From Candidatus Improbicoccus devescovinae (GTDB lineage: Bacteria > Bacillota > Clostridia > Oscillospirales > Acutalibacteraceae): 64,000 nt of DNA. The stretch is taken from contig BSWA01000002.1 in assembly GCA_036245095.1 (NCBI GenBank), positions 2,691-66,690 of the forward strand, read 5' to 3'. A model generated the notes under the pieces. That model did not search any database and was not told the DNA's origin. It saw only the letters and a list, made by a program, of their open reading frames with translations. The position numbers and the translations under genes are program-made. Of the stretch, positions 10,941 through 56,139 are shown one piece after another; positions within the stretch are counted from its first letter, which is position 1; every line of letters begins with the position of its first letter.

Positions 10941-11212
10941 TCATCAAACCATAATTTTGATACAAGCCAGAATCGCAGTAATACTGCGGGTTTTAACGTT
11001 TAGGAGAAAATTTTAAAGTCTGATTTTTTAAATTTTTAAACCCAAAAGCGCATTTGTGCACACACCTCGGAGGAAAAGTTTCATTGTGCACCAGGCTAAC
11101 AAATGCAGTAAATATGCCATTTTTGCGAAAAAATCCATCTCACGGCAACCGTAAAAAAAATTGTGAAAATAGAGCATAATTTAAGTAATAAAACACGGAG
11201 GGGCAAAGTCTC

Positions 11213-11929: not shown

Positions 11930-11937
11930 AAATTGCT

Positions 11938-13287: not shown

Positions 13288-13335
13288 AATTTTTTAATCC
13301 TCCATTCATATATATCCATATATTAAGGCTATTAG

Positions 13336-13518
13336 TCAAGGTTTAATGCGGTTTTTCAGGTGATTTAGCTCACCAAAAATTGGTTTGTATTTTTTGATTA
13401 ATTTGTCATTAACTACATCAAAATCTTTTTTGGAAATAACGCTGTTTTTAAGCATAGATTTTATAAGTAAAATTGAAATTTGATAATTTTTTTCGCGTTC
13501 AAATTGTTTATCTGTCAT
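13336..13518 (-). CDS. small conserved hypothetical protein (60 aa) next to the recombinase
   Basis: ORF overlaps the antirepressor stop by 11 nt. Identical second copy. Function unknown. Confidence 0.45.
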   Translation of the reverse strand: MTDKQFEREKNYQISILLIKSMLKNSVISKKDFDVVNDKLIKKYKPIFGELNHLKNRIKP

Positions 13519-14301
13519 TTAGCCGCACCACGCCAAGAAAGTAATTTACAAAATATTGCTGACCTTTACCTGTAACTTTAGTGGTTTTATTTACAGTGAT
13601 GTGCCCGTCAGAATGAGTAATTGCGGTTTCTTTTATTTTGAAAAGTTCCAGTTCCATCGATTTTTGTGTCGGCATATTGTAATCAGTACCGTTACGTTTT
13701 ATGAGATATCCGTCTTGACGAAGCTTTTCGAATAAACGATTTTGTCCGATTTCGATACCGTTACCTTTCAGAATTTTTGCGAGTTCGCCAATTAAAATTG
13801 TGCCATCGGAAACTGAGACAGCATCTGCAAAAATTACTTTCGGCTTATCTTTTTTAGACTGAATTTGCAGATATTCTTTTTCAGCACGCTCAATTTTTAA
13901 AGCCTGTGCCATTTCGATGAGCAAATCAGGATTATTTAGTAGTTCTTTTGTGGCATACATTCCGTGTTTGCGGATGGATGGCAAGACTTCATCGAAAACC
14001 CAACGTTCAAATTTTTCTGCTTTTAATTTTATTTCAGAATTTTTGTTCTGGTCAGCTGCTTTGATTATCAGACGATAAACATCGCCTTCAGAGATTACGT
14101 TCGTTTCTTGAATTCCTCCAACCGAAGGTATTCCCAACTTGGAAATACCTTTGCAGTGGTCGTGAACTGCTTTACTTGGGTTGGCATAATCTAAATTTTT
14201 TGCGACATCAATGCTAACAAAATGAGGTGAGGATTACCCTCAATTAAAATTGTTCTAATTTCGCCAAATTCCTCATTTTTAAAAATTGTAAGTTCATTCA
14301 T
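13508..14301 (-). pseudogene. phage antirepressor (BRO-N/AntA N-terminus + KilAC C-terminus) frameshifted by a 5-bp duplication
   Basis: N-terminus MNELTIFKNEEFGEIRTILIEGNP is in one frame. The rest (HFVSIDVAKNLDYANPSKAVHDH...KilAC) is in another. A tandem CCTCA CCTCA (coding strand; 14223-14232 on plus) causes the shift. Confidence 0.75.
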
Positions 14302-14377
14302 ATTAAAAAATCCTCCAAAATTTAATTTAAAATTAAGCATGAAAAAGGAGCCGTTTTACGGCTCCAAGTAATAATAT

Positions 14378-14785
14378 TTATGGGCTTTTGTAACGAAAAT
14401 TAATGTAACATTGATGACTGCAATAAATTCTTTTGCTATTTTGATAATCTGTAAATTTCTTGCCGCAATGCTTACAAATTACTATATTTTTGGGCTTATT
14501 TGTATAGATATTTCGATTTTTGTTCCAGCAACGATTTTTACAAGTTTTACAGCAAAATTTCTCTGGTTTAGTTTTTTTATCCAGAATCAGCGCTTTGCTG
14601 CAGTTTTTACAAAAATTTTGAGATTTATCATCTTTTATTTTCAAAACTTTAAAATTATTCCGTCTACAAAACGACTTGATTGTGTTTGCTGAAACTCCAG
14701 TAACTCCTGCAATTTTAGTATAGCTTTCACCATCTTCTCGCATTCTCTGAATTTTAAATCTTTGCGTCGTATCCAACAAAATCAC
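14378..14785 (-). CDS. small HTH (sigma-70 region-4-like) plus Cys-rich zinc-ribbon protein
   Basis: ESYTKIAGVTGVSANTIKSFCRRN helix-turn-helix followed by CxxC pairs (CKNC, CKTC, CKHC, CSHQC). GTG start. Confidence 0.6.
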   Translation of the reverse strand: MILLDTTQRFKIQRMREDGESYTKIAGVTGVSANTIKSFCRRNNFKVLKIKDDKSQNFCKNCSKALILDKKTKPEKFCCKTCKNRCWNKNRNIYTNKPKNIVICKHCGKKFTDYQNSKRIYCSHQCYINFRYKSP

Positions 14786-14786
14786 C

Positions 14787-15611
14787 TCAGCTGTTAGGAA
14801 TTTTCAAAACTTGTCCGGGATAAATTTTATCGCCGATAATGCCGTTAAGTTCCGCAATCTTACGCCATCTTGTACCGCTTCCAAGTTTCATCAAGGCAAC
14901 GCCCCATAATGTATCATCTGTGACCACAGTGTAAGTGTGGTAATTCGGTTGGTTTACTGAAATTGACTCGTTTTTTTAAAATCCATTTAGACCATTAGTT
15001 TTCATAATCTGCGGATAATCTTTGTAGCTTTCGTTTAAATCAACATTTCCGCTAATTCCATCGATTTTGCCTTGATCAGACTTCTGCCAAATCCCGCAAT
15101 TTATCGAAGGTTTGGTGGTATTCCACTGAGCGAGCCACAAATCAAATTCATTCAAAAGTTCATCTTTATTGAGATAATTTTGAAGCCAATTTAGGTTCAT
15201 ATAAATCATTGCATAATAGCCTGAATCTTCGATTTTTTCACAGAAAGCCTTACAAATGTTGGTTTTTTGGCGATTTGTGAGCGCCAACATCGTACGATCT
15301 TCAATGTCAAAAATTATTGGGTATTCAAATTGCTTGTTTGCGATATTTTTTAGACAAAATTCAGCCTCCAAAACGGCATCGTTTGCGGAATCTGCATAAG
15401 AATAATGATATGAACCTATGCAAATCCCTGCTGATTTTGCACCTGCGTAGTTTTGTTCGAAAAATTTATCTTTTTGGTTAGGTGATTCTTTTCCCCAGCC
15501 GGACCTGATTATTGCAAACTCCACGCCATTGTTTTTGGACTTTTGCCAATTAATATTGACGTTCCACTTTGAGACATCAATTCCGTTAAATTTCATATTC
15601 TTAACCTCCAA
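14787..15611 (-). pseudogene. GH25 muramidase-LysM endolysin split by an in-frame TAA (GH25 part 14976-15611, LysM part 14787-14975)
   Basis: The GH25 ORF ends ...NGLNGF-TAA. The same frame continues KNESISVNQPNYHTYTVVTDDTLWGVALMKLGSGTRWRKIAELNGIIGDKIYPGQVLKIPNS-TGA, a canonical LysM domain. Confidence 0.7.
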
Positions 15612-15815
15612 TTATGTTCTTTGCAAATTCATACGTGCCTGTTGACCCAAGCAAAATAGGAATTAAATTGAAAATTCCCAAAACTATGCCATTAAATGAA
15701 AAATCGCCCACAATGAAGTGCACCCCTTTGTTAAACTTAGACTTTTGTCTAAATTTTGGGGTGCAGTTCACAAAGGCGATTCTTACGATTGTTACAATAC
15801 TTGAAATTATTAAAT
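15601..15815 (-). pseudogene. holin remnant (3' two-thirds only; 5' end deleted at the IS-A junction)
   Basis: Matches 52254-52468 of the intact holin-like gene in copy 2. Homology stops at 15815, where truncated IS-A begins. Confidence 0.7.
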
Positions 15816-16671
15816 AAATTGGATTTTTATGTCTAAATATGATTTAATAATATCGGTGATGAAAATTGACAAGATATGAAAAAGCTATGAGATTACAAGA
15901 TGCAGATTTTAAGCAATTAATAGGTGTAAAAAAAGAAACTTATAGTGCGATGATTGCTCAGCTTCAAATAGCTTACGCTGAAAAGCACAAACGTCGAGGC
16001 AGGCACACAAAATTAACACTTCAAGATCAATTATTTATGGCTTTGAAGTACTGGCGACAGTATGTGACACAAAAAGAATTGGCATTTGAGTTTGAGGTTG
16101 GCGAAGCAACAACGCACGACACAATCGTTTGGGTCGAAGATACACTGATTAAAAGCAGAAAATTCAGTTTACCCGGCAAAAAAGCATTACTTGAAAATAA
16201 CGAGATAGAAATTGTGGTTGTTGATGTTATGGAAAGTCCGGTCGAACGCCCTAAAAAAAACAGCGTCAGTGGTATTCAGGAAAGAAAAAAAGGCATACCA
16301 TAAAAACGCAACTAATTGTAAATCGACAAACAAAAGATATTATCTGTATTGCCCATGCTGAAGGAAAAACTCACGACTTTAAACTTTATGAGGAAAGTAT
16401 AGGATATGCGATTTCAAATGATAAAAAAGTCCAAGGAGACAGCGGTTATCAGGGAATTTTGAGATTACACAAAAACAGCGAAACTCCAAAGAAAAAACCA
16501 AGAAAAGGCACACTCACTGCCGAAGAAAAATCTGAAAATCGGCGTATTTCAAAAGAACGAATCATAATTGAAAACATAAATGCAAAAATTAAAGTTTTTA
16601 AAATAGTAGCAAACAAATACCGTAATCGACGTACTCGGTTTAAATTAAGAATGTCTTTGTTGTGCGGATTA
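15816..16671 (+). mobile_element. IS-A copy 1: lacks the first roughly 12 nt of its left end, 3' end interrupted by IS-B
   Basis: orfA (15866-16303) is identical to the two other copies. orfB is readable in the -1 frame. Sequence diverges from IS-A at 16672, where the IS-B terminal repeat starts. Confidence 0.8.
16253..16260 (+). promoter_or_regulatory. A8 slippery run: candidate programmed -1 frameshift site joining IS-A orfA and orfB
   Basis: CCT AAA AAA AAC. A -1 slip gives PKKKQRQWYSGKKKRHTIKTQ..., stop-free into the DDE region (GDSGYQG, IIENINAKIK). Same run in all three copies. Confidence 0.5.
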
Positions 16672-17039
16672 GATAGTGTCTACACAAAATTTGACATTCT
16701 TAAATCAATGAAATAAACTTAAAAACTATGAATAATTTACAAAACAGACATGATTTAAAAAACGAACAATGGCTTAAAATAGAACCGATAATCAAGAGAA
16801 CGAATCATAATTGAAAACATAAATGCAAAAATTAAAGTTTTTAAAATAGTAGCAAACAAATACCGTAATCGACGTACTCGGTTTAAATTAAGAATGTCTT
16901 TGTTGTGCGGATTAGATAGTGTCTACACAAAATTTGACATTCTTAAATCAATGAAATAAACTTAAAAACTATGAATAATTTACAAAACAGACATGATTTA
17001 AAAAACGAACAATGGCTTAAAATAGAACCGATAATCAAG
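16554..17039. repeat. 243-bp tandem duplication (2 units) spanning the IS-A/IS-B junction
   Basis: 16554-16796 repeats at 16797-17039. Each unit has the last roughly 118 bp of interrupted IS-A plus the first 125 bp of IS-B. Confidence 0.85.
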
Positions 17040-22276: not shown

Positions 22277-22768
22277 TTATAAATGTCTTTGCCTCTTAGC
22301 TATAGGGACATTAGCTCCTAATTGCAGGGCTATCCTTTCCATTTTCCCGAATGGTAAGGCGACAGCCCCGACAGCGAACGGAATCCTAGTCGATTTATCG
22401 CCTGATTGATCATGTAACTCAAGAAAATTATGCCTGGGTGGATGAATCGGAAACCCGTCAGTATGTAATATAACCGCAGATTGAAAGGTAGAGTAATCGG
22501 TCTTTCCGCTTGGCCCTATGCTGATAGTGGTGACTGGATGCTCACTTGGAACAATTTTAACTTCATCGACATCTCCGTTCAGTAAGAGAATATCTTCCTT
22601 CCTTAAGTGTCCATTAATCATATGCCAGTCTAGGAAGGGTCTTTGCGTCCAGTATTAATAAATGCTTTCCGGCCAGGATTGATAAAGGCTTGTAGCTTTA
22701 ACTCCGCTAGATGCTGACATAACTATGAGAGAAGCTATCATACTCGTGATTTTTTGTACAAATTTCAT
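22277..22768 (-). pseudogene. secreted protein of unknown function interrupted by an in-frame TAA
   Basis: Strong AGGAGG RBS, ATG 22768, signal peptide MKFVQKITSMIASLIVMSASSG. TAA at 22655-22657. The same frame continues YWTQRPFLDWHMINGH... into track ORF 22277-22621. Confidence 0.6.
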
Positions 22769-23148: not shown

Positions 23149-23457
23149 ATGGACGAAAGTTTTGGGGAAAGAGAGGACAAAGTTCTCATTTGCAAAGAAT
23201 GTGGGAAGGAATTTGTATTTACCGGTGGAGAACAGGAGTTTTATGCTAGTAAAGGTTTTGAAAACGAACCACAAAGATGCAAAGAATGTCGTACGCGTAG
23301 GAATTCAGGGCGTATTCAAAAAGAAATGTTTGTCACTGAATGCACTGCATGTGGTGGTGAGGCTCGTGTTCCTTTCCAACCACGGGACGACCGACCTGTG
23401 TATTGTAGCGCTTGTTTCGCTAAAATACGCGAAGAAGAGCATGGCCCTAGAAGTTAA
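23149..23457 (+). CDS. small double zinc-ribbon (CxxC...CxxC x2) protein
   Basis: CKECGKEF...CKECR and CTACGGE...CSACF. This widespread small Cys-ribbon family is recognised by pattern only. Confidence 0.7.
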   Translation: MDESFGEREDKVLICKECGKEFVFTGGEQEFYASKGFENEPQRCKECRTRRNSGRIQKEMFVTECTACGGEARVPFQPRDDRPVYCSACFAKIREEEHGPRS

Positions 23458-23485
23458 ATTTCTTTTGAATTAGCTTTATGGATGT

Positions 23486-29189: not shown

Positions 29190-29966
29190 TCAGGCTACAT
29201 TACATAATTTCGCATCAGCCTCCCGTCTGGCGATCCGAGCACGTTCGTTCGCCTCATCTCTTGCTTTTTCAAGGCGAGCTCTTTCAAGAGAACCAACAAA
29301 CTGCTGATCACTTAGATTTTTATCATAATCATAAAGATGGCTACTTGGTGCAACTTCAACAAAGGTTTCCCAAACGAGGTCTCGACGCCCAGATCGTTCA
29401 AGAGTTCCATTAGGAGAATATACGTCAAAAGTTCCTAAATATGCCGATGATATAATAAATTTACTACCAATTTCTCTAGAAATATCTTTAATAAAATTAA
29501 AAGTTTCAGTATAATTTACAATCAAATTTGTACGTTGATCACATTTTGCACCGACAAACATAATCGTACCATTACAACCCCGGGTCTGAGCAAATGCCTT
29601 AGAAAATATTCTATTTATATACTCCCTGCGGGTGTCACCGCACGGCAACGTCATATCAACTACAATTAACGTGATATGTGTACCTGGTAAAAGTTCAGCA
29701 ACTTTCTCAAAATAATACTTCCATCCAGGGGTATCATAAACCTTTAAGGAATAGTCTTTATATCCTTCTTGATAAAAACTAAAATCGTCTGTGGGATCTT
29801 CACAAACAAAATTATCATTTTTCAGCCTTTCAATAATTGCAGTTTTCCCTTCTGTTTTATCCCCTACAACAACAATTTTTACATATTTCACATGAGCCTG
29901 TATTTTTGAATAACCAAATATAAAACAGCTAAATAACACAACCAATAATTTACTGAGTTTAAACAT
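29190..29966 (-). CDS. signal-peptide-bearing Ras/Rab-like small GTPase with polybasic tail and C-terminal CNVA (CaaX-like)
   Basis: Signal peptide ..YSKIQA|HV, G1 VVVGDKTEGKT, G3 VYDTPG, G4 VGAKCD, G5 SSA. Tail ..RARIARREADAKLCNVA-stop. AAGGAAGG RBS. Confidence 0.7.
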   Translation of the reverse strand: MFKLSKLLVVLFSCFIFGYSKIQAHVKYVKIVVVGDKTEGKTAIIERLKNDNFVCEDPTDDFSFYQEGYKDYSLKVYDTPGWKYYFEKVAELLPGTHITLIVVDMTLPCGDTRREYINRIFSKAFAQTRGCNGTIMFVGAKCDQRTNLIVNYTETFNFIKDISREIGSKFIISSAYLGTFDVYSPNGTLERSGRRDLVWETFVEVAPSSHLYDYDKNLSDQQFVGSLERARLEKARDEANERARIARREADAKLCNVA

Positions 29967-30050
29967 AAATTTAACCCTTCCTTATAAATATTTTATTTTT
30001 TGCTTTTTTAAATAATAATATAGTGCTACCGCCAATTATGGTCCCTAAAG

Positions 30051-30842
30051 CTAAGCAACTCCACAAGAACCATCTGCCGGGAGGTTTTTTTTTACGTGGC
30101 TTTGCTCAGGGCCTATATATTGTGTTTGCGGAAAATTCAATATATCTACAGCCACACTGTATCCTTTAGAAATAACCCCCATAATCCTCCCGGGGTTGCC
30201 TGAATAGGTTCGTTGCCAACTATTATCGTGGGTTGGTGGATAATATTTCGATGGATATCCATGGGTATGTTCAAGCTGCACCGTTGTATTCTTCAATTCA
30301 AAAAACGCTTGTACTCTTGCTGATTCTTCGGGATCTTTGCTTTCAAAATCCAAAGCTTCTTTATCAAAATTCCAAAAGTCCAAAACATTAGACCAACGAA
30401 ATCCTGCAAACCAATAAATAACATCTGTTATAACACATTTTGCACGCGGAGTTATGCCTTTTAATCTTGGATCGTCTGTATCATAAAAAATCGCTGCCAT
30501 AAACGCATTTTGCACAACCGCTTGAGCCCTCGGCCCAAGTTCCTGTTCTTCAAAAATCTCAAATCTAATATGCAATTTTGCTCCATTAGGCCAATTTATA
30601 ATAGCTTCTGGAGTACTAGGATTTTCTTGAACAAATTTTTTCCCGAAATCACCTTTTCCATATGTTGATACATTAAACTCGCGTTCAGACAACAAACCAA
30701 CATGGGCTTGTACTCGTGGACGATCTCCATTAGCGCAAATCAAAACCATGGTACCGCTGTATTCTCCTGGCTGCACAGCTCTCGTGCTTGGAATATTAAA
30801 AAACAAACAAAACGCCAAAATGATAGCAAGCTTTTTATTCAA
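30051..30842 (-). CDS. secreted protein of unknown function ending in CGVA (CaaX-like)
   Basis: TTG start 8 nt after CAGGAGGG. Signal peptide MNKKLAIILAFCLFFNIPSTRA|VQ. Last residues ..PADGSCGVA-stop. No P-loop. Confidence 0.65.
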   Translation of the reverse strand: MNKKLAIILAFCLFFNIPSTRAVQPGEYSGTMVLICANGDRPRVQAHVGLLSEREFNVSTYGKGDFGKKFVQENPSTPEAIINWPNGAKLHIRFEIFEEQELGPRAQAVVQNAFMAAIFYDTDDPRLKGITPRAKCVITDVIYWFAGFRWSNVLDFWNFDKEALDFESKDPEESARVQAFFELKNTTVQLEHTHGYPSKYYPPTHDNSWQRTYSGNPGRIMGVISKGYSVAVDILNFPQTQYIGPEQSHVKKNLPADGSCGVA

Positions 30843-30960
30843 AATTTTAACCCTCCTGTATTTAATATAACTAATTAAGTATACCCATTATTATCACCTG
30901 TGAATATTTATACCAGATAAATTTTAAAAAACAACCCCTTATTTTTTATAAATTTTAAAT

Positions 30961-31100: not shown

Positions 31101-31323
31101 TTTCAATTCAACTTTATTATACAACATTCTTAAATATTTTGTGATAATGCAAAAAATAGTTTAGACTTTGGAATTAGAAAATTTATTTATTTTGTACAAA
31201 ATATATAAAAAAATATGTCTAATTAATCGATTTTTTGTTTTATATGTTGCAAATATATATAAATATTATAGAATGTCGTCACTGTTGAGAAATATTATGT
31301 ATTTTTTTGTAAGGAGTGTGACT

Positions 31324-33594
31324 ATGTTTATGAAAATTCTCAAAAAAACTCTTGTGTATTTTATGGTAGTAAGTTTTGTGTTATTTAATTTTTTTGGAGT
31401 CGTTTTGTCAGCCGGAACTACTGTTAGCCGGCAAACAAGTGTTGCTGAACCAGGGTCGGGCATGGCTGTTTATTTAAGTAATATATTTAAAAAAACTGAC
31501 GAAGGAGGGATAGCTATAGGTGGTTCTGATCCTGATGCAGAAACAACTAGGCAAACAAAAGCAACAAAAGCGACAAAAGACTCATCGACGGCAATCTCAA
31601 CATCGAAAGTTTTTTTCGGTGGCAATGAATACTGGGTTGTATCGAATGAAGAAGAAACTGGTGAATCAACAAATACAACAAATAATTATTTGTATTTATT
31701 AGCTGCTCGGCCCTATGTAAGTTTTCCGTTTTATCCGGACCCGGTCGAGTCAAGTCGGCAAGTAAGAACTGAAGAGCAAATTAAACCTAGAAATAGTTAT
31801 AATTATGGCAATAAACTAAGTTCTATTTGTAAATATTTTACAGATAAAGCGAGCACAGTCGGGCCTGACAGTGAAAATGGCGATGTAACACGACCAAGCA
31901 CGGAGGCTGTCCCGCCAGGATACAACGCAGCTGATTGGTCGGGATCAAAACTAATAGGCGATGCGTTGAAAAGCTTTACCGGCCAAGATCTTAAAAATTT
32001 CTATCTTGATTTTTTTAAAAATAACCGAGACCGTGATTGGAATTTAGCAATAGACACTGCGGTGAAAACCAATATGTATCCGGCGTCTAATGATACTGAT
32101 CTAAATTTTACCACGCCGTCGACAACAACTTATGAAGGGAAATTTTGGCTCCCAAGTGTTTTAAAAGGAACTAACGATTCTTACTCATTAAGTATAGACC
32201 CAAATAATGATGGTGACTTTAAACCAGATCTAAGAGCAAACATAAGTACTGAAAATACAAATTTGTCAATCCCGCGTGCCTACTGGTCTTCAACTGCAGG
32301 AAGAACAAGAACTCAAAGTAGTGATCGGGCTTCTAATCATGCGTTATATAATAAATCTGCCCAAAATCCTAACAGCATTGGAGACGTTAAAGTTGGCATG
32401 TTGCAAGACGTGTTCCCTGCCTGTAGAATTAACTTGGCTGATGTAGTTTATGCAGATTCACTAGATTCAGATTCTAAGGTAAATACCGAAAACTTTAGCA
32501 TCAAAACTCCTAGCGACGGCTTGGCCGAATTGACGGAAGATTCCGCAGAAAATGTGAATAAAAACGTAGTTTTGACTGTGAAATCCGAAGATGTTACGAG
32601 TAAGACCAATGCGATAGAAAGTTCATTGGATGAAACAGGGGCATTAATTATAACACCGGTTACATCCACATTAAAGACAAACGAATATCTTGGGTTAATA
32701 ATTGATTCGGGTAGCAAAATCGCATTTATAAATGGTAATTTATACAAATCTTCAGATAGCACAAAGTATACAATCCCGAGCGAAATTTTAGATAAATTTG
32801 GTGAAAATATAAAAATACAAATTCATGCCTGTGAAGATAATACAAATTCAATGTATGCTTCAGAAACGGGTTCTGAAACCCGAAAACGAGATGCTGAAAC
32901 TTATGAAGTAGATGATTATAAAATTCGTTATGCAAGACATCTGGCAGACATAGAATTAGCTGAAGATACCTCAATTGGCGAAAGTTCTGATTATGCAGAA
33001 AGTGAGGAAAGTAATATTGACGAATATACTTTTAATAAAACAGATCCAGCAAGCGGAGTAATTGTAAAATCAAAAGGCTTCCCATCGGATTCCTTATTAA
33101 ATGTAACAACAGCTACGAAAGCCGACCAATTAAGTGAATATTTTGAATTTGTCAAAAATAATATAGACAATCCAGAACACGTTGAAAATTATACAATATA
33201 CAGTATTGCAGTTCAAATAAAAAAAGCAACAACCGGCGACTCTGATTCTATTGAATATGAAAACGTAGGAAATTTTGAATCAACCTATGGAGAAGCAGAG
33301 GTATGGCTTCCAGTTCCTGAAGGCTATACAAAATCGAATCTGCAAGCCCGATTTATATCAACCGAGGAAGACACAGTCAAACCCGGGACCATTGAAAAAA
33401 TAGGAGACAAAGAATATTATGTATTTAAAACCACGCATTTCAGCCCATATGGACTTCTAGACTTAAAAGATTCCTATTATTACCCACAGACAGGCCAAAA
33501 ACTAATTGGGACATATTTAATAACAGCCACTTCCACGTTAATGGCCACTTTAGTAATTTTAACCAAAAACAGAACTAAAAAAAGAGTATTTTAA
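31324..33594 (+). CDS. sortase-anchored surface protein (PQTG sorting signal)
   Basis: AAGGAG RBS and ATG 31324 (MFMKILKK..., signal peptide). C-terminus YPQTGQ + hydrophobic LIGTYLITATSTLMATLVIL + KNRTKKRVF. The track ORF begins upstream at 31168. Confidence 0.8.
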   Translation: MFMKILKKTLVYFMVVSFVLFNFFGVVLSAGTTVSRQTSVAEPGSGMAVYLSNIFKKTDEGGIAIGGSDPDAETTRQTKATKATKDSSTAISTSKVFFGGNEYWVVSNEEETGESTNTTNNYLYLLAARPYVSFPFYPDPVESSRQVRTEEQIKPRNSYNYGNKLSSICKYFTDKASTVGPDSENGDVTRPSTEAVPPGYNAADWSGSKLIGDALKSFTGQDLKNFYLDFFKNNRDRDWNLAIDTAVKTNMYPASNDTDLNFTTPSTTTYEGKFWLPSVLKGTNDSYSLSIDPNNDGDFKPDLRANISTENTNLSIPRAYWSSTAGRTRTQSSDRASNHALYNKSAQNPNSIGDVKVGMLQDVFPACRINLADVVYADSLDSDSKVNTENFSIKTPSDGLAELTEDSAENVNKNVVLTVKSEDVTSKTNAIESSLDETGALIITPVTSTLKTNEYLGLIIDSGSKIAFINGNLYKSSDSTKYTIPSEILDKFGENIKIQIHACEDNTNSMYASETGSETRKRDAETYEVDDYKIRYARHLADIELAEDTSIGESSDYAESEESNIDEYTFNKTDPASGVIVKSKGFPSDSLLNVTTATKADQLSEYFEFVKNNIDNPEHVENYTIYSIAVQIKKATTGDSDSIEYENVGNFESTYGEAEVWLPVPEGYTKSNLQARFISTEEDTVKPGTIEKIGDKEYYVFKTTHFSPYGLLDLKDSYYYPQTGQKLIGTYLITATSTLMATLVILTKNRTKKRVF

Positions 33595-35402: not shown

Positions 35403-36182
35403 ATGTCGCTTTTAGGATCAATTGTTTCAAATTATAGAACCAGTGTATTATATGATTTTAGTTTAGTAGTTAAAGCCAATATATTTATATTGAAGGTAGT
35501 AGAAAAAGATGTAACCGATTTGTTTACTAAGGGGCCATTTGGTTGGAGCGTTAAAGAAGCATTACCATTGCAATTAAATCCAACAAGTATAAAGCGTAAT
35601 CGAGGTTCACAGATGAAATCCGCGGATGATAGTAAAAAAGGCTTAAGGTCGTTTGATGGTCCTGCTGTTACAACACCTGATAATTATGTATTACTGTTCC
35701 CCGATAGAGCCCAAAAAGCTGAGGATCTTGAATTGGACTTAACATTTGACATATATGATGAATATAATATGCGAACTATGAATGGCACTATTCCTCTTGA
35801 TATATCTTTAGCTGATCCAGATGTAGTGATTATTGAACACTTATTTTTATATGCAAATACGAATAACTACTGGGCATTATTCAAATGGGGCCCGTTAGTT
35901 TATTTTGGAAAAATTAGAAGAGTAAACTTTGAATATACTACATTTTCTGCTTATGGTGAACCATTAAAAGGCAAGGGAAGTCTTTCGATAGAAAAACAAT
36001 CCCTGGGAACGGACGATGATGGGACAGAGCTAGAACCAGGATTACGTACGTTGGGAGCAGTTCCGTGGGCGGAAATAACTGGTTACACGAAAGCTCAAAC
36101 AGCTTTAGTTGTAGGTATGCGCATAGCAGAAGAAGCAGCAGCATTAACAGTTCCGACAATTTTACGTACAATTGGGAATTAG
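35403..36182 (+). CDS. contractile-injection-system / phage tail tube-like protein (orphan)
   Basis: Motif string LQLNPTSIKRNRG ... LELDLTFDIYDEY ... DVVIIEHLF ... ALFKWGPLVYFGKIRRVNFEYTTFSAYGEPLKGKGSLSIEKQ. This resembles the F-x-F-N-P ... L-F-F-D ... F-x-W-G ... F-x-G ... F-T-x-F ... G-x-P-x-R-A pattern of CIS tube/tube-initiator domains. Confidence 0.45.
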   Translation: MSLLGSIVSNYRTSVLYDFSLVVKANIFILKVVEKDVTDLFTKGPFGWSVKEALPLQLNPTSIKRNRGSQMKSADDSKKGLRSFDGPAVTTPDNYVLLFPDRAQKAEDLELDLTFDIYDEYNMRTMNGTIPLDISLADPDVVIIEHLFLYANTNNYWALFKWGPLVYFGKIRRVNFEYTTFSAYGEPLKGKGSLSIEKQSLGTDDDGTELEPGLRTLGAVPWAEITGYTKAQTALVVGMRIAEEAAALTVPTILRTIGN

Positions 36183-36258: not shown

Positions 36259-39200
36259 ATGTCAGCAAAAAAAGCAAAGCTTGAACTGAAGACTGACGAA
36301 ACAGTGGCATCTGATGATAATCTTGAAAGTATATATACATTTTTTGAGGGCCTTGATACCAAAAATGATAAAAAGCGTTTAAGTGAAAAAGCTAAAAAAC
36401 TTAAACGTGAATGGCAAAAAGATAAATCTAACAGCCAGACAGAAGCCAAAAGGAAAGAGAGAACCTCTGATAAAGAGTTTAGCGAATCAAATATATCCCA
36501 AAGAGCTTTGGTGTTTAGTTATAGACAACGAACATTTAAAAAGTTACTTGACGCAATGGGTATAAAAGAAGTCAAACATGATAATTCTACTAATATTGAC
36601 GCATTGACTACAGACGCAGATGACCGAACAAGTTTTAAAATCTTGTTAGACGCTATATTTGAGGAAACTCATACAATGGAGAATGAAATAAACAGCAAGC
36701 CTGACCTACGGACTGAGATGAAAAAACACGTAAATACCAAAGATGAGAAGAAAAATAAAAAATATGATAGAGAAGAAGAGGAATCTCTGGAAAGCCAACA
36801 AAAGAATGAAAAAAAGAGATTTGAAAAAACTATGAAAGAACGCAAAGAAGAATTTGAAAGACTTAATGAGATAGTTACAGAAAGAATAGAAATTAGTAGT
36901 GACCTTAAGTTAACAGATGTAATTGCAAAAGTAAATGAAAGAAGAACAAAAGAAACGAAAGAAATAAATAAAAAAAGACAAAAAGAAATGGCCAAAATAA
37001 ATGCAGATAGATTAAAAGAACGTAAACGCAATGAGATACGCAATAAACTTAAATCTATTTTCCCGTGGAACAAAAAGGAAGAGGAAGAGGAAGATGATAT
37101 CAAAGAGGATAGCCCTCCTAAAAAATTGGAATCAACTATTCCAGACATAAAAATTGATACCATTGAAAAACCTGAAAATGAAGCTGATGAATCCAAGTAT
37201 AAGGCGCATTATATGGCTACAGAAGAATTTATAGTTGATTTTTGCAATAAAATTGAAAAAAAATTTTTAGAAATAAAATCAATCAAGAAAATTTTTAATA
37301 TTAAAAAAGATCTGATAAACTGTGTTAGTTCGTACAAAGATAAATGCAAAGAAATAGAAAGATCTCAGTTAGCTAAAAAATCATTTGAAGACATCAAATC
37401 AAATGAAAAATTATATACTAATTATGGCAAAACACGAATAGATGGATTTTTACGAAATGCAAGCAATGCTTATGAATTTGGTATTCAAAATTTTTTTTCA
37501 AATTTAATTAAAGAATTAATTGGCATACATTCAGAAATTATAATCATGAAAGAAGAGCTAAATACGTCGGTAGAGAATCCTCCTGATGAATTGGATGAAG
37601 TTGATGACATTACGGATTATTTGGGTGCTAATTTACAAGCTTTCAATGAAATAGTACAATCTTCTTCTAAAAAATTAGAGGATGAAAATGCTCCAAAAGC
37701 TGATGTAGATGAAGAGCCTTCTGCCAAACCAAACGAACTAAAAAATACTCCTGCAAATATGCATGAAGAAAATGAATATCAAACGGCACGATTAGTTAAT
37801 TTGGCTACGTTTGCATCTGTGGTTGCTCCTATGTTGAACGTATCAGTGGATACAGCCAAGCCGGTGATTACCAGGGATATGAAATATAAAGCGCTATTTG
37901 ACTGCAAAGATGCAGTTAGATTCCATGAGTTAGAAACGAGGCCATGTATCGAGCAAATAGCTACTCTAGAACAATCTAAAGCAGACAAGCCAGACACCGC
38001 GACGAATGACCAAGATCAATCTCAAGCTTTACTTAAGAGGTTGGACAAAATACAAAGTAAATACCAAGAGGAAGCAAATTCAAACGAAAAAAAAGTGAAA
38101 GATTTTTTTGCTATAGTAGTAAAAAGAAGTTTAACAAAATCTAGACATCTTCACTTGTTGAAGCTATATGATGAAATTAAAAAATATCTTGATAAGACGT
38201 ATCATGAACAATTAATAACATGGTCGAAGACTGCAATTAATTCTACCAAACAGACAACTGAGGAAGATCCCAAGACTACTAGCCCAGTAGCCACCCAGCC
38301 AGCTGCCGGAAGCGTTACGCCTCCTGCTACTCCGTCTGAGCAGGTTGGACAACAGCAAGCAACAGAAAAGCCAAAAATAGATCCAACGTACATTCATTAT
38401 TTTTTACAGGAAGATACTACTCAAGTAAAAAAATTAGAAAATATATTTTTAAAATCAGACTGTGATTTTGAAAAAATTCAAGAAACCTTTGTAAAGATTC
38501 CTGCGGCTAAAGAAATGAAAAAATCAATATTAAAGATAGACGAGGCGAAAGAAACCGAACAAGAAAAATGGTTTAATAGAAATGACGTATTTTTAACATG
38601 TTTCGGGACGTTGGCTTCGGCTGCGGCAATATATTGCAAATCATCAAAAACATCTAATAAATTTGACGAAATTAAAGAAAAATATCAAGCATATCTTAAA
38701 ATTGGTGGAATCGCTGTTGAGGAGGCAATTAACCAAGTTTTTCCTCTTACTATAATCGAGCCCCAAAACCAAACACAAGAAACAACCCAAAAACCAACCA
38801 ACGAACCTCCGAAAAAACAACTTTTAGAGGAAGACTTGAAACGACATTTTGATACTCAACAAGTAGAGTTAGCACTTTTTGCCCAAAATCTATTCTCTGG
38901 TTTCAATGATGACATAAGAGACAACCTAGCCACGCAGTCTATCAGCATAGACAAAATAAAACAATCAATAGAGTCAGACAAACCAGCGAGCTCATATTCT
39001 GGCGAGTATATTACAGCTATTATGGAACAACCGACTGGTGAGGAAGCTTATAAATATGCTAAAGAAAAAGATAAAAAACATCCAAGATTATATAACCTAT
39101 CAGAACCAGCACCAAATGCTCCTGAAACAGATAAACTACCACAACCCGATGGTGAAAATAAGGCGCCGGTCGATCCACAACAGAAGACCCATATTTGCTT

Positions 39201-40395
39201 AGGTAAGCGAATATATCAGGAAGCTTTAGTCAATAATTTAAGCTTGTTTGCTGCTATTGTAGCCCGAAAATTATCGTTACCTGATGAAATTACAAATGCG
39301 AAGGATGTAAAATATAAAAAACTTTATGATATCGTATGTTATCCAAAAATATACCTTAAGCCAGTAACTAATATAATAGATAATGAAAAATCTGATGCCG
39401 ACAACGCAAAGAATATTGCTGCTATAGATAAATTTATGAAGCGTTGGGAAGCAATAATTGCAGACAGTAAAAAAGCATTATCTCAATTTATTTCTGAAGA
39501 TTTATTAAAAGAAGAAAATATAAGTGAATCGCAAGGAAAAGATATTCAAGAGCTATTTAACAAAATTAATAATCATTTAGAATCACAATATAATAAACCA
39601 GAAATTAAACCAAAGAATCAGCCTGACATAGCAAATCTTAAAAAAATGGACTTAGTCTCATATGCGTTATACTCTTGTTTTATTAATTATAGCTTACCTG
39701 AGGCAAAACAGGTTGCTAGTGGAGCCACATTTACTGACGTGATTAACACTATCAAATCTGACAGAGGAATACTAAAAGACCTGAATAATCTGATATTAAC
39801 TGAGGGTACAGATGCAGTAAATATTCTCTATAAATTAATAAATAGAAATGAAATAGTGATTGCCTATTACTTAAATGATGTATTATTTTCTGCTATCAAT
39901 GCTAGAGAAAAAAATGATAATTTTATTAAAACAAAAAAAGATTTCAATGAAAAATACGAGGCCTTAATGTTACAACGAATAAAATACAAAACGCAAAAGA
40001 CAGAACAATTAGAACTCATGTTTGAACAAATAGCATTAGAAATAGACGATATACAGGCTCGCAAAGAAACTACGGCTGGAACCTGCGCACCAGGCGACTC
40101 CTATACCCCATATATAACAATATTTAATCAAATAACCAATTTTTGGAATGAAATAACAAACAAAGAAGATAACCTGGTAACAACAACTAATCGTCCTGAT
40201 ACTAAAATAAAACATTATTTTAATACAGAATTTATAAATGAAATAAATAAAGAAGAAAAAGCTGAGAAAATATATGAACTCATAAAAGCAAAAAAACATG
40301 CATCAAAATTAGAAATCATTAGTAAACTGTTAACAGAACTAGAAAAAAAGAAAACTGCGGCAGCAGATACTCAGAATCCACCTCCTAGCACTTAA
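36259..40395 (+). CDS. giant K/E-rich, largely helical lineage-specific protein (1378 aa) with an internal module duplication
   Basis: AGGAG RBS and a 4.1-kb ORF. Two divergent modules (..ARLVNLATFASVVAPML..DMKYKALFD.. and ..EALVNNLSLFAAIVARKL..DVKYKKLYD..). Short Pro-rich linkers. Confidence 0.8.
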   Translation: MSAKKAKLELKTDETVASDDNLESIYTFFEGLDTKNDKKRLSEKAKKLKREWQKDKSNSQTEAKRKERTSDKEFSESNISQRALVFSYRQRTFKKLLDAMGIKEVKHDNSTNIDALTTDADDRTSFKILLDAIFEETHTMENEINSKPDLRTEMKKHVNTKDEKKNKKYDREEEESLESQQKNEKKRFEKTMKERKEEFERLNEIVTERIEISSDLKLTDVIAKVNERRTKETKEINKKRQKEMAKINADRLKERKRNEIRNKLKSIFPWNKKEEEEEDDIKEDSPPKKLESTIPDIKIDTIEKPENEADESKYKAHYMATEEFIVDFCNKIEKKFLEIKSIKKIFNIKKDLINCVSSYKDKCKEIERSQLAKKSFEDIKSNEKLYTNYGKTRIDGFLRNASNAYEFGIQNFFSNLIKELIGIHSEIIIMKEELNTSVENPPDELDEVDDITDYLGANLQAFNEIVQSSSKKLEDENAPKADVDEEPSAKPNELKNTPANMHEENEYQTARLVNLATFASVVAPMLNVSVDTAKPVITRDMKYKALFDCKDAVRFHELETRPCIEQIATLEQSKADKPDTATNDQDQSQALLKRLDKIQSKYQEEANSNEKKVKDFFAIVVKRSLTKSRHLHLLKLYDEIKKYLDKTYHEQLITWSKTAINSTKQTTEEDPKTTSPVATQPAAGSVTPPATPSEQVGQQQATEKPKIDPTYIHYFLQEDTTQVKKLENIFLKSDCDFEKIQETFVKIPAAKEMKKSILKIDEAKETEQEKWFNRNDVFLTCFGTLASAAAIYCKSSKTSNKFDEIKEKYQAYLKIGGIAVEEAINQVFPLTIIEPQNQTQETTQKPTNEPPKKQLLEEDLKRHFDTQQVELALFAQNLFSGFNDDIRDNLATQSISIDKIKQSIESDKPASSYSGEYITAIMEQPTGEEAYKYAKEKDKKHPRLYNLSEPAPNAPETDKLPQPDGENKAPVDPQQKTHICLGKRIYQEALVNNLSLFAAIVARKLSLPDEITNAKDVKYKKLYDIVCYPKIYLKPVTNIIDNEKSDADNAKNIAAIDKFMKRWEAIIADSKKALSQFISEDLLKEENISESQGKDIQELFNKINNHLESQYNKPEIKPKNQPDIANLKKMDLVSYALYSCFINYSLPEAKQVASGATFTDVINTIKSDRGILKDLNNLILTEGTDAVNILYKLINRNEIVIAYYLNDVLFSAINAREKNDNFIKTKKDFNEKYEALMLQRIKYKTQKTEQLELMFEQIALEIDDIQARKETTAGTCAPGDSYTPYITIFNQITNFWNEITNKEDNLVTTTNRPDTKIKHYFNTEFINEINKEEKAEKIYELIKAKKHASKLEIISKLLTELEKKKTAAADTQNPPPST

Positions 40396-53282: not shown

Positions 53283-53283
53283 G

Positions 53284-53691: not shown

Positions 53692-53767
53692 ATATTATTA
53701 CTTGGAGCCGTAAAACGGCTCCTTTTTCATGCTTAATTTTAAATTAAATTTTGGAGGATTTTTTAAT

Positions 53768-54733: not shown

Positions 54734-54781
54734 CTAATAGCCTTAATATATGGATATATATGAATGGAGGATTAAAAAATT

Positions 54782-56131: not shown

Positions 56132-56139
56132 AGCAATTT

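What the first reader, a model, noticed from the sequence alone, without database searches (positions are those of the whole stretch)
29190..29966. Exported Ras/Rab-like small GTPase with a eukaryote-style polybasic tail and a CaaX-like end (..AKLCNVA)
Seen in the 258-aa translation. There is a Sec-type signal peptide (MFKLSKLLVVLFSCFIFGYSKIQA|HV). It is followed by the ordered Ras-superfamily G motifs: G1 VVVGDKTEGKT, G3 VYDTPG, G4 VGAKCD (NKxD with N->A) and G5 SSA. Next comes a charged helical tail (ERARLEKARDEANERARIARREADAK), and the last four residues are C-N-V-A. Established knowledge: a C-terminal Cys-a-a-X box after basic residues is the prenylation and membrane-targeting signal of eukaryotic Ras/Rho proteins. 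Some bacterial effectors (Salmonella SifA, several Legionella proteins) carry such boxes and are prenylated by the host. Ordinary bacterial Ras-like GTPases such as MglA have neither a signal peptide nor a CaaX end. The N at the first 'a' position is not aliphatic, so the box is only CaaX-like. Two 60-nt lines counted in the adjacent co-oriented gene 30051-30842 gave 47% and 38% GC, against much lower values in the flanks. The gene sits in the insertion that splits gatCAB. Inference: a secreted, host-membrane-targeted GTPase mimic, possibly horizontally acquired.
Basis: partly seen in the sequence, partly recalled or inferred. Interest (0 to 1): 0.8.

Follow-up and report, generated by a model that had tools for sequence, protein, structure and literature searches.

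The report
Exported Ras-like GTPase with prenylation box
A bacterium that lives inside a termite-gut protist encodes a Ras-like switch protein with both a bacterial export signal and a eukaryote-style lipid-anchor tag, and this design is conserved across a family of relatives that includes human-gut and rumen bacteria, which suggests the host cell lipidates the protein.

Summary
The ORF lies on the minus strand (29966->29190). It encodes 258 aa with a Sec-type signal peptide, a confidently modelled Ras/Rab/Rho fold, a charged C-terminal helix and the end C-N-V-A. The window comes from Candidatus Improbicoccus devescovinae NkDv07, an intracellular clostridial symbiont of the protist Devescovina. 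The gene is NkDv07_0512. Takahashi et al. 2023 (ISME J) already list it as a eukaryotic-like small GTPase with a Sec signal peptide. That paper does not mention a CaaX box, and neither did the other papers I searched.

The comparative picture appears to be new. NkDv07_0512 belongs to a bacterial family restricted, as far as detected, to the small-genome Acutalibacteraceae clade (termite protists, rumen, human gut, one phage). Of 35 non-redundant members, 25 have Cys at -4 with a hydrophobic a2 residue (CSIL, CVIM, CVLL, CILL...), although the linkers before it are unconserved. A second exported protein always sits immediately upstream. Here it is NkDv07_0513, ending CGVA; it looks like a G-domain protein without a P-loop.

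The whole family lacks the catalytic glutamine. The best reading is a Sec-exported, host-prenylated, probably GTP-locked GTPase mimic. The GC-based transfer argument and the "polybasic" label are not supported. No prenylation has been shown.

The parts
29190..29966 (-). Gene NkDv07_0512: 258-aa exported Ras-superfamily small GTPase. The end coordinate includes the stop codon at 29190-29192.
   Evidence: ORF and translation. Pfam Ras 38.8 bits. Identical to NCBI 'Ras family protein [Candidatus Improbicoccus devescovinae]'. Listed in Table S10 of PMC10579323.
29895..29966 (-). Signal peptide, residues 1-24 (MFKLSKLLVVLFSCFIFGYSKIQA | HV).
   Evidence: The n-h-c architecture is visible in the sequence. 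SignalP 6.0 'Sec signal peptide' is reported by the genome's authors. The N-terminus aligns with the signal peptides of family members, which end ..VFA|E..ALA|A or ..VSA|E.
29352..29888 (-). G domain, residues 27-205. G1 is GDKTEGKT (35-42), G3 is DTPGW (78-82, with W in place of the catalytic Gln), G4 is AKCD (140-143) and G5 is SSA (173-175). A beta-hairpin insertion lies at 179-193.
   Evidence: AlphaFold2 mean pLDDT 86.5 for the whole protein, with most 10-residue blocks of this domain at 84-98. Foldseek top hits are Rab10, Rab6, Cdc42, Rab5a, Rac1, Rnd1 and RhoE, with E about 1e-9 and TM 0.64-0.82 per target. Alignment to Rab1A. Family alignment.
29205..29297 (-). Mixed-charge C-terminal helix (residues 224-254). 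It is the counterpart of the hypervariable linker of eukaryotic Ras/Rab proteins.
   Evidence: Helix 224-257, with pLDDT 87-96 over residues 231-250. Its last 32 residues hold 9 basic and 7 acidic residues. Linker length and sequence are unconserved across the family.
29193..29204 (-). CaaX-type box C255-N-V-A258.
   Evidence: Sequence. Cys at -4 with a hydrophobic a2 residue in 25 of 35 non-redundant family members.
29975..29983 (-). Shine-Dalgarno-like AAGGAAGGG, 8 nt upstream of the ATG of NkDv07_0512.
   Evidence: Read from the sequence.
30051..30842 (-). Gene NkDv07_0513 ('partner A'): 263-aa exported protein with no Pfam family, probably a G-domain-like protein without a P-loop. It lies 84 nt upstream of the GTPase on the same strand.
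   Evidence: ORF. NCBI name. hhalign to the partner-A alignment gives 96.3% probability, E 1.5e-9. AlphaFold2 pLDDT 64.8, pTM 0.67. The Foldseek top 50 are all GTP-binding G-domain proteins, mostly small GTPases, but weakly so (E about 1e-4, TM 0.30-0.57). There is no GK[ST] motif in any member.
30777..30842 (-). Signal peptide of NkDv07_0513, residues 1-22 (MNKKLAIILAFCLFFNIPSTRA | VQ). The start codon is TTG, with AGGAGGG at 30851-30857.
   Evidence: Sequence. Aligned with the signal peptides of the partner-A homologues.
30054..30065 (-). CaaX-type box C260-G-V-A263 of NkDv07_0513.
   Evidence: Sequence. Partner-A homologues in L006 (CTLF), L008 (CGIC) and L009 (CVVC) also end in Cxxx. The phage copy (L001) ends in a long hydrophobic stretch instead, and L014 has a shorter one near its end.

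Best explanation
NkDv07_0513 and NkDv07_0512 form a conserved two-gene effector cassette of an intracellular clostridial symbiont.

Proposed mechanism:
1. Both products are made with cleavable Sec signal peptides and leave the Gram-positive cell unfolded.
2. The GTPase folds outside the bacterium into a eukaryote-type Ras/Rab/Rho G domain that keeps the P-loop, the Mg/gamma-phosphate DxxG motif and the guanine-specific K-x-D.
3. It lacks the catalytic glutamine (W82) and has a non-glycine residue at the Ras-12 position. It is therefore expected to bind GTP but hydrolyse it poorly, as Rnd proteins do.
4. Its C-terminal C-N-V-A is a farnesyltransferase-type CaaX box. Most relatives carry CaaL boxes of the geranylgeranyltransferase-I type.
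5. Once the C-terminus reaches host cytosol, the host prenylates Cys255, which pins the protein to a host or vacuolar membrane. There it would act as a permanently 'on' membrane-identity or signalling mimic.
6. The partner, apparently a G-domain relative without a P-loop and here also CaaX-tagged (CGVA), is proposed to work on the same membrane as a regulator or binding partner.

Shown: sequence motifs, the fold, family-wide conservation of signal peptide, CaaX and gene pairing, and the organism's lifestyle (from the literature).
Inferred: export, GTP-locked state, prenylation, membrane targeting, and partner interaction.
For: Fold and motifs:
- Pfam Ras/Arf/Roc hits pass their cutoffs, and Rab1A is the best PDB sequence match.
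- The AlphaFold2 model has pLDDT 86.5. Its Foldseek top hits are Rab, Cdc42, Rac and Rnd structures.

Organism:
- The protein is identical to one from Ca. Improbicoccus devescovinae.
- That bacterium lives in the cytoplasm of Devescovina, is an ATP/ADP-translocase 'energy parasite', and has Sec-signal-bearing eukaryotic-like proteins, including NkDv07_0512 (PMC10579323).

Family:
- An exhaustive HMMER search of 1.84 billion representatives gave 57 hits. The best roughly 20 align from residue 3, so they share the signal peptide.
- A profile built only from gut and rumen members scores the window protein at 115.5 bits (106.5 for the G domain alone). Single-domain eukaryote-type Rabs score 38-81 bits against it.
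- Genome hits are all Clostridia, Acutalibacteraceae or 'Eubacteriales' MAGs with 29-35% GC from human gut and rumen, plus Ca. Paraimprobicoccus trichonymphae.

CaaX:
- 25 of 35 non-redundant members have Cys at -4. The a2 residue is I (9), L (9), F (4), V (2) or C (1). X is L (13), with A, M, Q, C, T, E and K making up the rest.
- The background rate is about 2%, giving a binomial p of about 5e-35, uncorrected for phylogeny.
- The linker before the Cys ranges from about 10 to about 130 residues with no conservation.
- ORFs with a signal-peptide-like N-terminus end in Cxxx in 14 of 65 cases, against 5 of 171 for the others (Fisher p = 1.6e-5).
- FTase/GGTase-I rules: CaaL/I/M goes to GGTase-I, and a1 is permissive (PMC11152559).

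Cassette:
- Partner A lies immediately upstream of the GTPase in every locus with enough upstream sequence.
- hhalign links NkDv07_0513 to partner A at 96.3% probability and the truncated L015 copy at 94%.
- Several partner copies also end in CaaX, and the phage copy ends in a long hydrophobic stretch instead. This is as expected if membrane anchoring is the selected property.

A GTP-binding protein with a secretion signal is only useful where nucleotides exist, that is in host cytosol (inference).
Against: - No experiment shows export, GTP binding or prenylation.
- TEM in PMC10579323 shows NkDv07 cells or aggregates surrounded by a host membrane. A Sec-exported protein would therefore land first in a vacuole lumen, and no translocator across that membrane is identified.
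- CNVA, CGVA and the closest homologue's CEVT are less canonical than the gut members' boxes.
- A phage-linked subfamily conserves C-P-F-E, a poor predicted prenyltransferase substrate.
- About a fifth of complete members lack any C-terminal Cys.
- The hosts of the human-gut and rumen members are unknown, so their intracellular life is itself an inference.
- The partner's G-domain-like fold rests on a mediocre model (pLDDT 64.8) and weak Foldseek scores.
Confidence: 0.6

Rival explanations
1. The cassette serves a bacterial or phage-intrinsic role, such as a prophage 'moron', surface or superinfection function, or anti-phage defence. In that case the conserved C-terminal Cys would be used for bacterial chemistry (a disulfide, a thioether, or lipidation or processing by a CPBP/Rce1-like protease) and not for host prenylation.
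For: One subfamily sits inside a phage genome, between the tail genes and the holin/GH25 lysin (L001). Other members lie next to serine recombinases and prophage tail genes (L003, L004, L005). In those relatives the cassette continues with a STAND/AAA_16-like ATPase, which gives weak PADLOC hits (DolB 1e-8 to 1e-9). An Rce1-like (CPBP) gene lies about 10 kb from the cassette in L005. The phage subfamily's CPFE end is not a good CaaX box.
Against: PADLOC gives nothing meaningful for the GTPase (LeoA, E 0.005) or for partner A, and PHROGs gives nothing. No bacterial CaaX cysteine prenyltransferase is known (established knowledge). The a2 = I/L/V and X = L/M/A/Q/C pattern matches the specificity of the eukaryotic enzymes. 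An exported GTP-binding domain has no nucleotide supply outside a host cell. In the window the cassette is not inside a prophage and lacks the ATPase.
Confidence: 0.15
2. The CaaX box is a non-functional relic of a eukaryotic donor gene. The protein is exported and may act on the host, but it is not lipidated.
For: The window protein's box (CNVA) and its closest homologue's (CEVT) are weak versions. The authors infer that such genes came from protists. Some members have lost the Cys altogether.
Against: Members share only about 20-40% identity, and their linkers cannot be aligned, yet Cys at -4 with an aliphatic a2 persists in 25 of 35. That pattern indicates purifying selection. The box also appears on the very divergent partner protein in four lineages. 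The family is closer to itself than to any eukaryotic Rab, so the transfer, if there was one, is old.
Confidence: 0.1
3. The N-terminal hydrophobic segment is an uncleaved membrane anchor, or the protein stays in the vacuole lumen or on the bacterial surface. The GTPase would then never meet host prenyltransferases and would act at the bacterium-vacuole interface.
For: NkDv07 is enclosed by a host membrane. No dedicated effector translocator is evident apart from a borderline contractile-injection-system tube hit 5.5 kb away.
Against: The segment has a short h-region followed by A-x-A-type sites that are conserved across the family. The authors' SignalP 6.0 run calls it a Sec signal peptide, not a transmembrane anchor. 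This reading leaves the conserved CaaX box unexplained.
Confidence: 0.1

Closest known systems
Eukaryotic-like small GTPases of termite-protist endosymbiotic Clostridia (Takahashi et al. 2023, ISME J, PMC10579323)
   Same: This is the same gene. NkDv07_0512 appears in their Table S10 as a 'Rnd2_Rho7' domain protein with a Sec signal peptide, proposed to be secreted and to manipulate the host.
   Different: The paper does not mention CaaX or prenylation. It gives a plant (Nyssa sinensis) as the closest relative and states that the three genomes' repertoires of eukaryotic-like genes were acquired independently. Here the protein falls in a bacterial family shared with Ca. Paraimprobicoccus and with human-gut and rumen MAGs, always paired with a second exported protein.
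Host-prenylated CaaX effectors of Gram-negative pathogens (Legionella AnkB, LseA, PelC/PelE; Salmonella SifA, GtgE)
   Same: These are bacterial proteins that end in a CaaX box and are lipidated by host FTase or GGTase-I for anchoring to host or vacuolar membranes (PMC7542358; titles and abstracts of PMC13423502 and PMC13081727).
   Different: Those effectors are injected by type III or type IV secretion systems directly into the cytosol, and none of them is a small GTPase. Here the carrier is a Gram-positive bacterium, the export signal is a Sec signal peptide, and the cargo is itself a Ras-like GTPase.
Legionella longbeachae Rab-like GTPases (Llo3288, Llo2329, Llo1716)
   Same: They are bacterial Ras-superfamily GTPases of eukaryotic type in an intracellular bacterium, presumed to subvert host trafficking. 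Their function is unknown (PMC2824747; PMC7542358).
   Different: They are Dot/Icm-type substrates without Sec signal peptides. The papers I read describe no CaaX box for them. I detected no sequence relationship closer than the general Ras fold.
Rnd proteins (Rnd1, Rnd3/RhoE) of animals
   Same: Rnd proteins lack the catalytic Gln and the Gly at position 12, are constitutively GTP-bound, and are farnesylated at a CaaX box (established knowledge). Rnd3/RhoE and Rnd1 are among the sequence and structure matches. The switch II sequence DT.G..YY is similar.
   Different: No subfamily assignment is possible, because Rab and Rho structures match equally well. The spacing from G4 to G5 is 31 residues, so there is no room for the 13-residue Rho insert. 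The protein has a signal peptide and a beta-hairpin insertion after G5.

Membership tests
Ras superfamily small GTPase (Pfam PF00071 and relatives) | G1 P-loop GxxxxGK[ST] | tested here: met
   G35-DKTE-G40-K41-T42. G35, G40, K41 and T42 are at least 90% conserved in the 20-member family alignment.
Ras superfamily small GTPase (Pfam PF00071 and relatives) | G3 DxxG (switch II) followed by a catalytic Gln (Ras Q61) | tested here: not met
   D78-T-P-G81 is present, with D78 invariant. The Gln position is W82 here and L, M, A or S in relatives; no member has Gln. The DxxG part is met and the catalytic residue is not.
Ras superfamily small GTPase (Pfam PF00071 and relatives) | G4 [NT]KxD guanine-specificity motif | tested here: met
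   A140-K141-C-D143. K141 and D143 are invariant in the family. The first position is A here and S or T in relatives, as in the TKxD of Rac.
Ras superfamily small GTPase (Pfam PF00071 and relatives) | Six-stranded G-domain fold | tested here: met
   AlphaFold2 pLDDT 86.5. The 50 Foldseek hits listed are all Rab, Rho, Rac, Cdc42 or Rnd structures, and 1757 hits have E <= 0.001. Pfam Ras scores 38.8 bits against a cutoff of 21.6.
Ras superfamily small GTPase (Pfam PF00071 and relatives) | GTP/GDP binding and hydrolysis | not testable with these tools
   This needs a nucleotide-binding and GTPase assay on the mature protein.
Rho/Rnd subfamily (the CDD label used in PMC10579323) | Rho insert helix of about 13 residues between G4 and G5 | tested here: not met
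   D143 to S174 is 31 residues, which is Ras/Rab-like. The model shows a single helix 149-166 there. Rab and Rho structures match equally well.
CaaX prenylation substrates (FTase / GGTase-I) | Cys exactly four residues from the C-terminus | tested here: met
   C255-N-V-A258. Conserved in 25 of 35 non-redundant relatives.
CaaX prenylation substrates (FTase / GGTase-I) | Aliphatic a2 residue, and an X residue that selects the enzyme | tested here: met
   Here a2 is V and X is A, the FTase type (compare a-factor CVIA). In the family, a2 is I/L/V in 20 of 25 and X is L in 13 of 25, the GGTase-I type.
CaaX prenylation substrates (FTase / GGTase-I) | Aliphatic a1 residue | tested here: not met
   Here a1 is N, and the family mostly has T, S or V. 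This position is permissive, because FTase modifies non-aliphatic a1/a2 boxes (PMC11152559).
CaaX prenylation substrates (FTase / GGTase-I) | The C-terminus is exposed to eukaryotic cytosol and is actually prenylated | not testable with these tools
   The organism is intracellular but enclosed by a host membrane. No biochemical data exist.
Sec-dependent secreted protein | N-terminal n-h-c signal peptide with a signal peptidase I site | tested here: met
   MFKLSK / LLVVLFSCFIFGY / SKIQA|HV. The segment aligns with the family's signal peptides, which end in A-x-A-type sites. The SignalP 6.0 'Sec signal peptide' call is published for this locus tag; I could not run SignalP here.
Known anti-phage defence systems (PADLOC) | Significant match of the GTPase or its partner to a defence-system model | tested here: not met
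   The only hit is LeoA at E 0.005 (13.9 bits) for the GTPase. There is nothing for NkDv07_0513 or its homologue.

The most novel reading that the evidence does not exclude
The cassette is a self-contained, transferable 'membrane identity kit'. It would consist of a P-loop-less pseudo-GTPase and a hydrolysis-dead Ras-like GTPase, both Sec-exported and both lipidated by the host. Planted on host or vacuolar membranes, they would create a permanent GTPase-ON platform. The kit would be ancestral to the whole small-genome Acutalibacteraceae clade and moved by phages. On this reading, the canonical CaaX boxes on Sec-exported proteins of widespread human-gut and rumen MAGs mark those uncultured bacteria as residents of eukaryotic cytoplasm.
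Probability: 0.3. Interest if true: 0.8.

Novelty: new variant of a known kind. Interest (0 to 1): 0.62.

Why it matters
Host prenylation of bacterial effectors is known only from a few Gram-negative pathogens that inject proteins with type III or type IV secretion systems. Bacterial Ras-like GTPases of eukaryotic type are known mainly from Legionella, and their function is unknown.

This locus combines the two ideas in a Gram-positive endosymbiont: a Sec signal peptide at one end and a CaaX box at the other end of a Ras-like GTPase. The design is conserved in a family that reaches into human-gut and rumen bacteria whose hosts are unknown.

A canonical CaaX box has no known reader in bacteria. 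Its conservation on exported proteins is therefore an inexpensive, sequence-level indicator that these uncultured gut Clostridia spend their lives inside eukaryotic cells. That turns the speculative 'energy parasite' hypothesis for the human-gut members into something testable, by expressing the proteins in yeast or cultured cells with and without the Cys and prenyltransferase inhibitors.

It also raises a concrete cell-biological question. How does a Sec-exported protein of a vacuole-enclosed Gram-positive bacterium reach the host cytosol?

Tried and rejected
- Word-indexed protein searches with the GTPase and with NkDv07_0513 returned only the proteins themselves. The exhaustive HMMER search was needed to find the family.
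- The look-up of encoding contigs has no record of the window protein.
- The 20-sequence alignment was too divergent for the genome scan, so a 9-member subset was used.
It worked after the same sequences were recovered as collection proteins.
- BLASTP of the GTPase against its neighbour shows no homology (E 2.2). Profile-profile comparison of the two families aligns only the signal peptide and first strand (62% probability). A paralogous origin of the partner is therefore suggested by fold only, not shown.
- The partner profile has no PDB sequence relative and no Pfam family.
- PADLOC and PHROGs gave nothing for either protein, so I rejected the defence-system reading as the primary explanation.
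- IMG/VR scans with two family alignments found nothing. The phage link therefore rests on one ENA contig family (L001/L002) and on prophage-adjacent loci.
- A metagenome scan with the close pair P0001+P0003 found nothing. A scan with the gut subset found three human-gut contigs.
- GC and GC3 gave no sign of recent transfer.
- The promoter and terminator scans were at chance level.
- PMC6369783 (the Legionella genus effector paper) is not held.
Full report
**1. What is at the coordinates**

The finding's ORF is real but lies on the minus strand, with ATG at 29966 and the stop at 29190-29192. The plus-strand frame at these coordinates is full of stops. A Shine-Dalgarno-like AAGGAAGGG precedes the start.

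Pfam Ras (38.8 bits against a cutoff of 21.6), Arf and Roc all pass their thresholds. The best solved-structure sequence match is Rab1A (E 4e-5), followed by Rnd3/RhoE. That alignment confirms each G motif:
- GDKTEGKT is the P-loop.
- DTPGW aligns to DTAGQ.
- GAKCD aligns to GNKCD.
- SSA aligns to TSA.

An AlphaFold2 model built on a 20-sequence family alignment is confident (mean pLDDT 86.5, pTM 0.75). It shows a G domain, a beta-hairpin insertion at 179-193 and a single long C-terminal helix at 224-257. Foldseek against the PDB returns Rab10, Rab6, Cdc42, Rab5a, Rac1, Rnd1 and RhoE at E about 1e-9, with TM 0.64-0.82 per target. No subfamily is preferred.

**2. Where the window comes from, and what is already published**

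The protein is 100% identical to 'Ras family protein [Candidatus Improbicoccus devescovinae]'. The neighbouring ORF is named NkDv07_0513, so the GTPase is NkDv07_0512.

Takahashi et al. 2023 (PMC10579323) describe this organism as a coccoid, endospore-forming member of the Clostridia. It lives in the cytoplasm of the termite-gut parabasalid Devescovina and is enclosed by a host membrane. Its genome is reduced, it carries an ATP/ADP translocase, and it has 'eukaryotic-like' proteins, at least 20 of 42 with signal peptides. Their Table S10 lists NkDv07_0512 with domain Rnd2_Rho7, closest organism Nyssa sinensis, and 'Sec signal peptide'.

The combination of exported protein and Ras-like GTPase is therefore already on record. 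The paper's main text and supplement contain no occurrence of CaaX, prenyl or farnesyl. Neither does the 2025 rumen-ciliate symbiont preprint that discusses the same clade. A full-text search found no paper linking CaaX to these proteins.

**3. The CaaX end is a conserved family feature**

An exhaustive HMMER search of 1.84 billion representative proteins found 57 hits. The best roughly 20 align from residue 3, so they share the signal peptide. Their sequences end in textbook prenylation boxes:
- CSIL
- CLLL
- CILL
- CVLL
- CVIC
- CSLQ
- CVIM
- one Rab-style ..GCC

The closest homologue, P0003, is 41% identical, comes from an Oscillospiraceae MAG, and ends CEVT.

I added members from a profile search and from genome loci and collapsed the set at 80% identity, which left 35 sequences. 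Of these:
- 25 have Cys at -4 with a hydrophobic a2 residue;
- 2 end in CC or CxC;
- 8 have neither, and three of the 8 are fragments or truncated.

At a2 the residues are I (9), L (9), F (4), V (2) and C (1). At X they are L (13), E (4), A (2), Q (2), and one each of M, C, T and K.

Unrelated ORFs of the window and related loci carry Cys at -4 at about 2% (4/211). The segment between the G domain and the Cys varies from about 10 to about 130 residues. It includes poly-Ser, PPPAP, RQRDEQ repeats and charged helices, and cannot be aligned. This behaviour matches the hypervariable region plus CaaX of eukaryotic Ras and Rab proteins, and it points to selection on the box itself.

Farnesyltransferase takes CaaX with a permissive a1 position, and geranylgeranyltransferase I takes CaaL/I/M (PMC11152559). 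CNVA is thus an FTase-type box with a non-canonical a1, and most relatives carry GGTase-I-type boxes.

One subfamily conserves C-P-F-E after a W-F-G-rich stretch. That is not a good predicted substrate, and I cannot explain it.

**4. The family is bacterial and clade-restricted**

A profile built only from gut and rumen members scores the window protein at 115.5 bits, or 106.5 for the G domain alone. It scores single-domain eukaryote-type Rabs at 38-81 bits. Pfam Ras gives the window protein only 38.8 bits.

A scan of one genome per GTDB species found ten loci, all at 29-35% GC:
- MAGs labelled Clostridia, Acutalibacteraceae, 'Eubacteriales', Ruminococcus or Ruminococcaceae, from Hadza and other human guts and from rumen;
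- the complete genome of Ca. Paraimprobicoccus trichonymphae.

Three further contigs are labelled human gut metagenome. This matches the 'small genome clade' of Takahashi et al. It suggests one old family, not independent recent captures from each host. This differs from the paper's reading, but I did not compute a phylogeny.

Composition agrees with an old residence. The GTPase gene has GC 0.355 (z +0.30) and GC3 z of -0.79. The neighbour has GC 0.395 (z +1.35) and GC3 z of +0.10.

**5. A conserved two-gene cassette**

The upstream, co-oriented ORF at 30051-30842 (NkDv07_0513) also has a signal peptide and ends C-G-V-A. Among the window's ORFs of 60 aa or more that end Cxxx, only these two are in the non-overlapping gene set.

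In every related locus with enough upstream sequence, a signal-peptide protein of 245-380 aa sits directly before the GTPase. These proteins form a family with no Pfam model, carrying the motifs ILYDISD, GWxNALNFxTYGKENL and DNKWxRGHPD. NkDv07_0513 matches their profile at 96.3% probability, E 1.5e-9. A truncated copy precedes the truncated GTPase of Ca. Paraimprobicoccus (94%).

Several partner copies also end in Cxxx: CTLF, CGIC and CVVC. The phage-borne copy ends in a long hydrophobic stretch instead, and L014 has a shorter hydrophobic stretch near its end. This is what one would expect if C-terminal membrane anchoring is the selected property.

An AlphaFold2 model of NkDv07_0513 is only moderate (pLDDT 64.8, pTM 0.67). 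Its strand-helix order resembles a G domain, and all 50 top Foldseek hits are GTP-binding G-domain proteins (mostly RhoA, Rab11, Rap1B and KRAS). The scores are weak, at E about 1e-4 and TM 0.30-0.57. No member has a GK[ST] P-loop. I read it as a probable pseudo-GTPase, with low-to-moderate confidence.

In the relatives the cassette continues with more signal-bearing 'cytoplasmic-type' proteins: a LysM protein, an ankyrin protein and an AAA_16/STAND-like ATPase. It often lies beside serine recombinases and prophage tail genes. One subfamily sits inside a phage contig between the tail genes and the holin/lysin genes.

**6. Mechanism**

Shown: the fold, the motifs, and the conservation of signal peptide, CaaX box and gene pairing.

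From the literature: the intracellular lifestyle and the SignalP call.

Inferred steps:
1. Both proteins are exported by Sec.
2. The GTPase folds and loads GTP only where nucleotides are available, that is in host cytosol.
3. It lacks the catalytic Gln (W82; no family member has Gln) and has Lys at the Ras-12 position. It should therefore stay GTP-bound, as Rnd proteins do.
4. The host FTase modifies Cys255, and GGTase-I modifies the CaaL relatives. The protein then sits on a host or vacuolar membrane as a permanently active mimic, with the partner acting on the same membrane.

The main weak point is topology. NkDv07 is surrounded by a host membrane, and no route across it is known. A borderline contractile-injection-system tube hit lies 5.5 kb downstream, and eCIS loci are reported in this clade. 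Nothing links these to the cassette.

**7. Rivals**

- A phage or bacterial-intrinsic role is suggested by the mobile-element context and the CPFE subfamily. PADLOC and PHROGs give nothing for either protein, and no bacterial reader of CaaX is known.
- A relic CaaX is contradicted by conservation across unalignable linkers and by its presence on the partner.
- Retention at the bacterial surface leaves the CaaX box unexplained.

**8.

- The gene is on the minus strand.
- The tail is a mixed-charge helix (9 K/R against 7 D/E in the last 32 residues), not polybasic.
- There is no GC anomaly.
- The statement that the genes lie between gatA and gatB is correct. However, the intervening block also holds the housekeeping sporulation protease gene spoIVB and has no mobile-element hallmarks of its own.

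**9. Verdict**

The GTPase-plus-signal-peptide part is already published. The family-wide CaaX box, the clade-wide family and the conserved partner appear to be new.

I rate this a new variant of a known kind, namely host-lipidated effector mimicry. It is of moderate-to-high interest because it offers a sequence-level marker of eukaryote-intracellular life in uncultured gut Clostridia.

Noticed in passing
window 10915-15815 and 52254-57154: A perfect (100%) 4,901-nt inverted repeat. Each arm carries a 449-aa serine-recombinase-like ORF, a GH25 lysozyme and small phage-like ORFs. The arms enclose 36.4 kb that include gatCAB and the GTPase cassette. A further 692-877-nt element occurs three times (15816-16692, 51395-52086, 57402-58278). 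This could be an invertible segment or a duplicated prophage remnant.
   Followed up: partly
window 35403-36182 (+) and 36259-40395 (+): Directly after gatB there is a 259-aa ORF with a borderline contractile-injection-system tube match (PF19266, 26.9 bits against a cutoff of 27). It is followed by a 1,378-aa ORF with no Pfam hit. eCIS loci are reported for this clade. This is a possible delivery device near the exported effectors.
   Followed up: no
window 31168-33594 (+): An 808-aa ORF with no Pfam family. It ends in YPQTG, then a hydrophobic stretch, then KNRTKKRVF, which is a sortase-type cell-wall sorting signal. The true start is probably an internal Met before a signal peptide.
   Followed up: no
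L003 10700-14306; L005 10782-13627; L006 5266-8045; L010 1862-4697; L011 10755-14356; L012 10775-13620: In the gut and rumen relatives the cassette continues with a LysM protein, an ankyrin-repeat protein and a roughly 465-aa AAA_16/STAND-like ATPase. The ATPase itself begins with a signal-peptide-like segment, which is odd for an ATPase.
   Followed up: partly
L001 8875-10789 (ENA contig k109_211428, 37 kb): A phage-like contig (tape measure, holin, GH25/LysM lysin) carries the partner and GTPase pair as a moron between the tail and lysis genes. Here the partner ends in a long hydrophobic stretch and the GTPase ends in a conserved ..WFG..CPFE. IMG/VR scans found no further phage copies.
   Followed up: partly
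L015 9395-10564 (Ca. Paraimprobicoccus trichonymphae RsTa-C01, AP027925.1): Both cassette genes look truncated. The partner lacks its N-terminal third, and the GTPase (P0004, 187 aa) stops right after G5 without a tail or CaaX box. This is consistent with decay in a pseudogene-rich genome.
   Followed up: partly
L005 1-573: An Rce1-like (CPBP, PF02517) membrane protease gene lies about 10 kb from a CaaX-bearing GTPase cassette. Such genes are common in Firmicutes, so this may be coincidence.
   Followed up: no
window 22277-22621, 23162-23473, 58604-60697: These ORFs have the highest GC in the window (0.43, z above 2). The ORF at 23162-23473 has GC3 of 0.55 (z 4.2). They are far more compositionally deviant than the GTPase cassette.
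   Followed up: no
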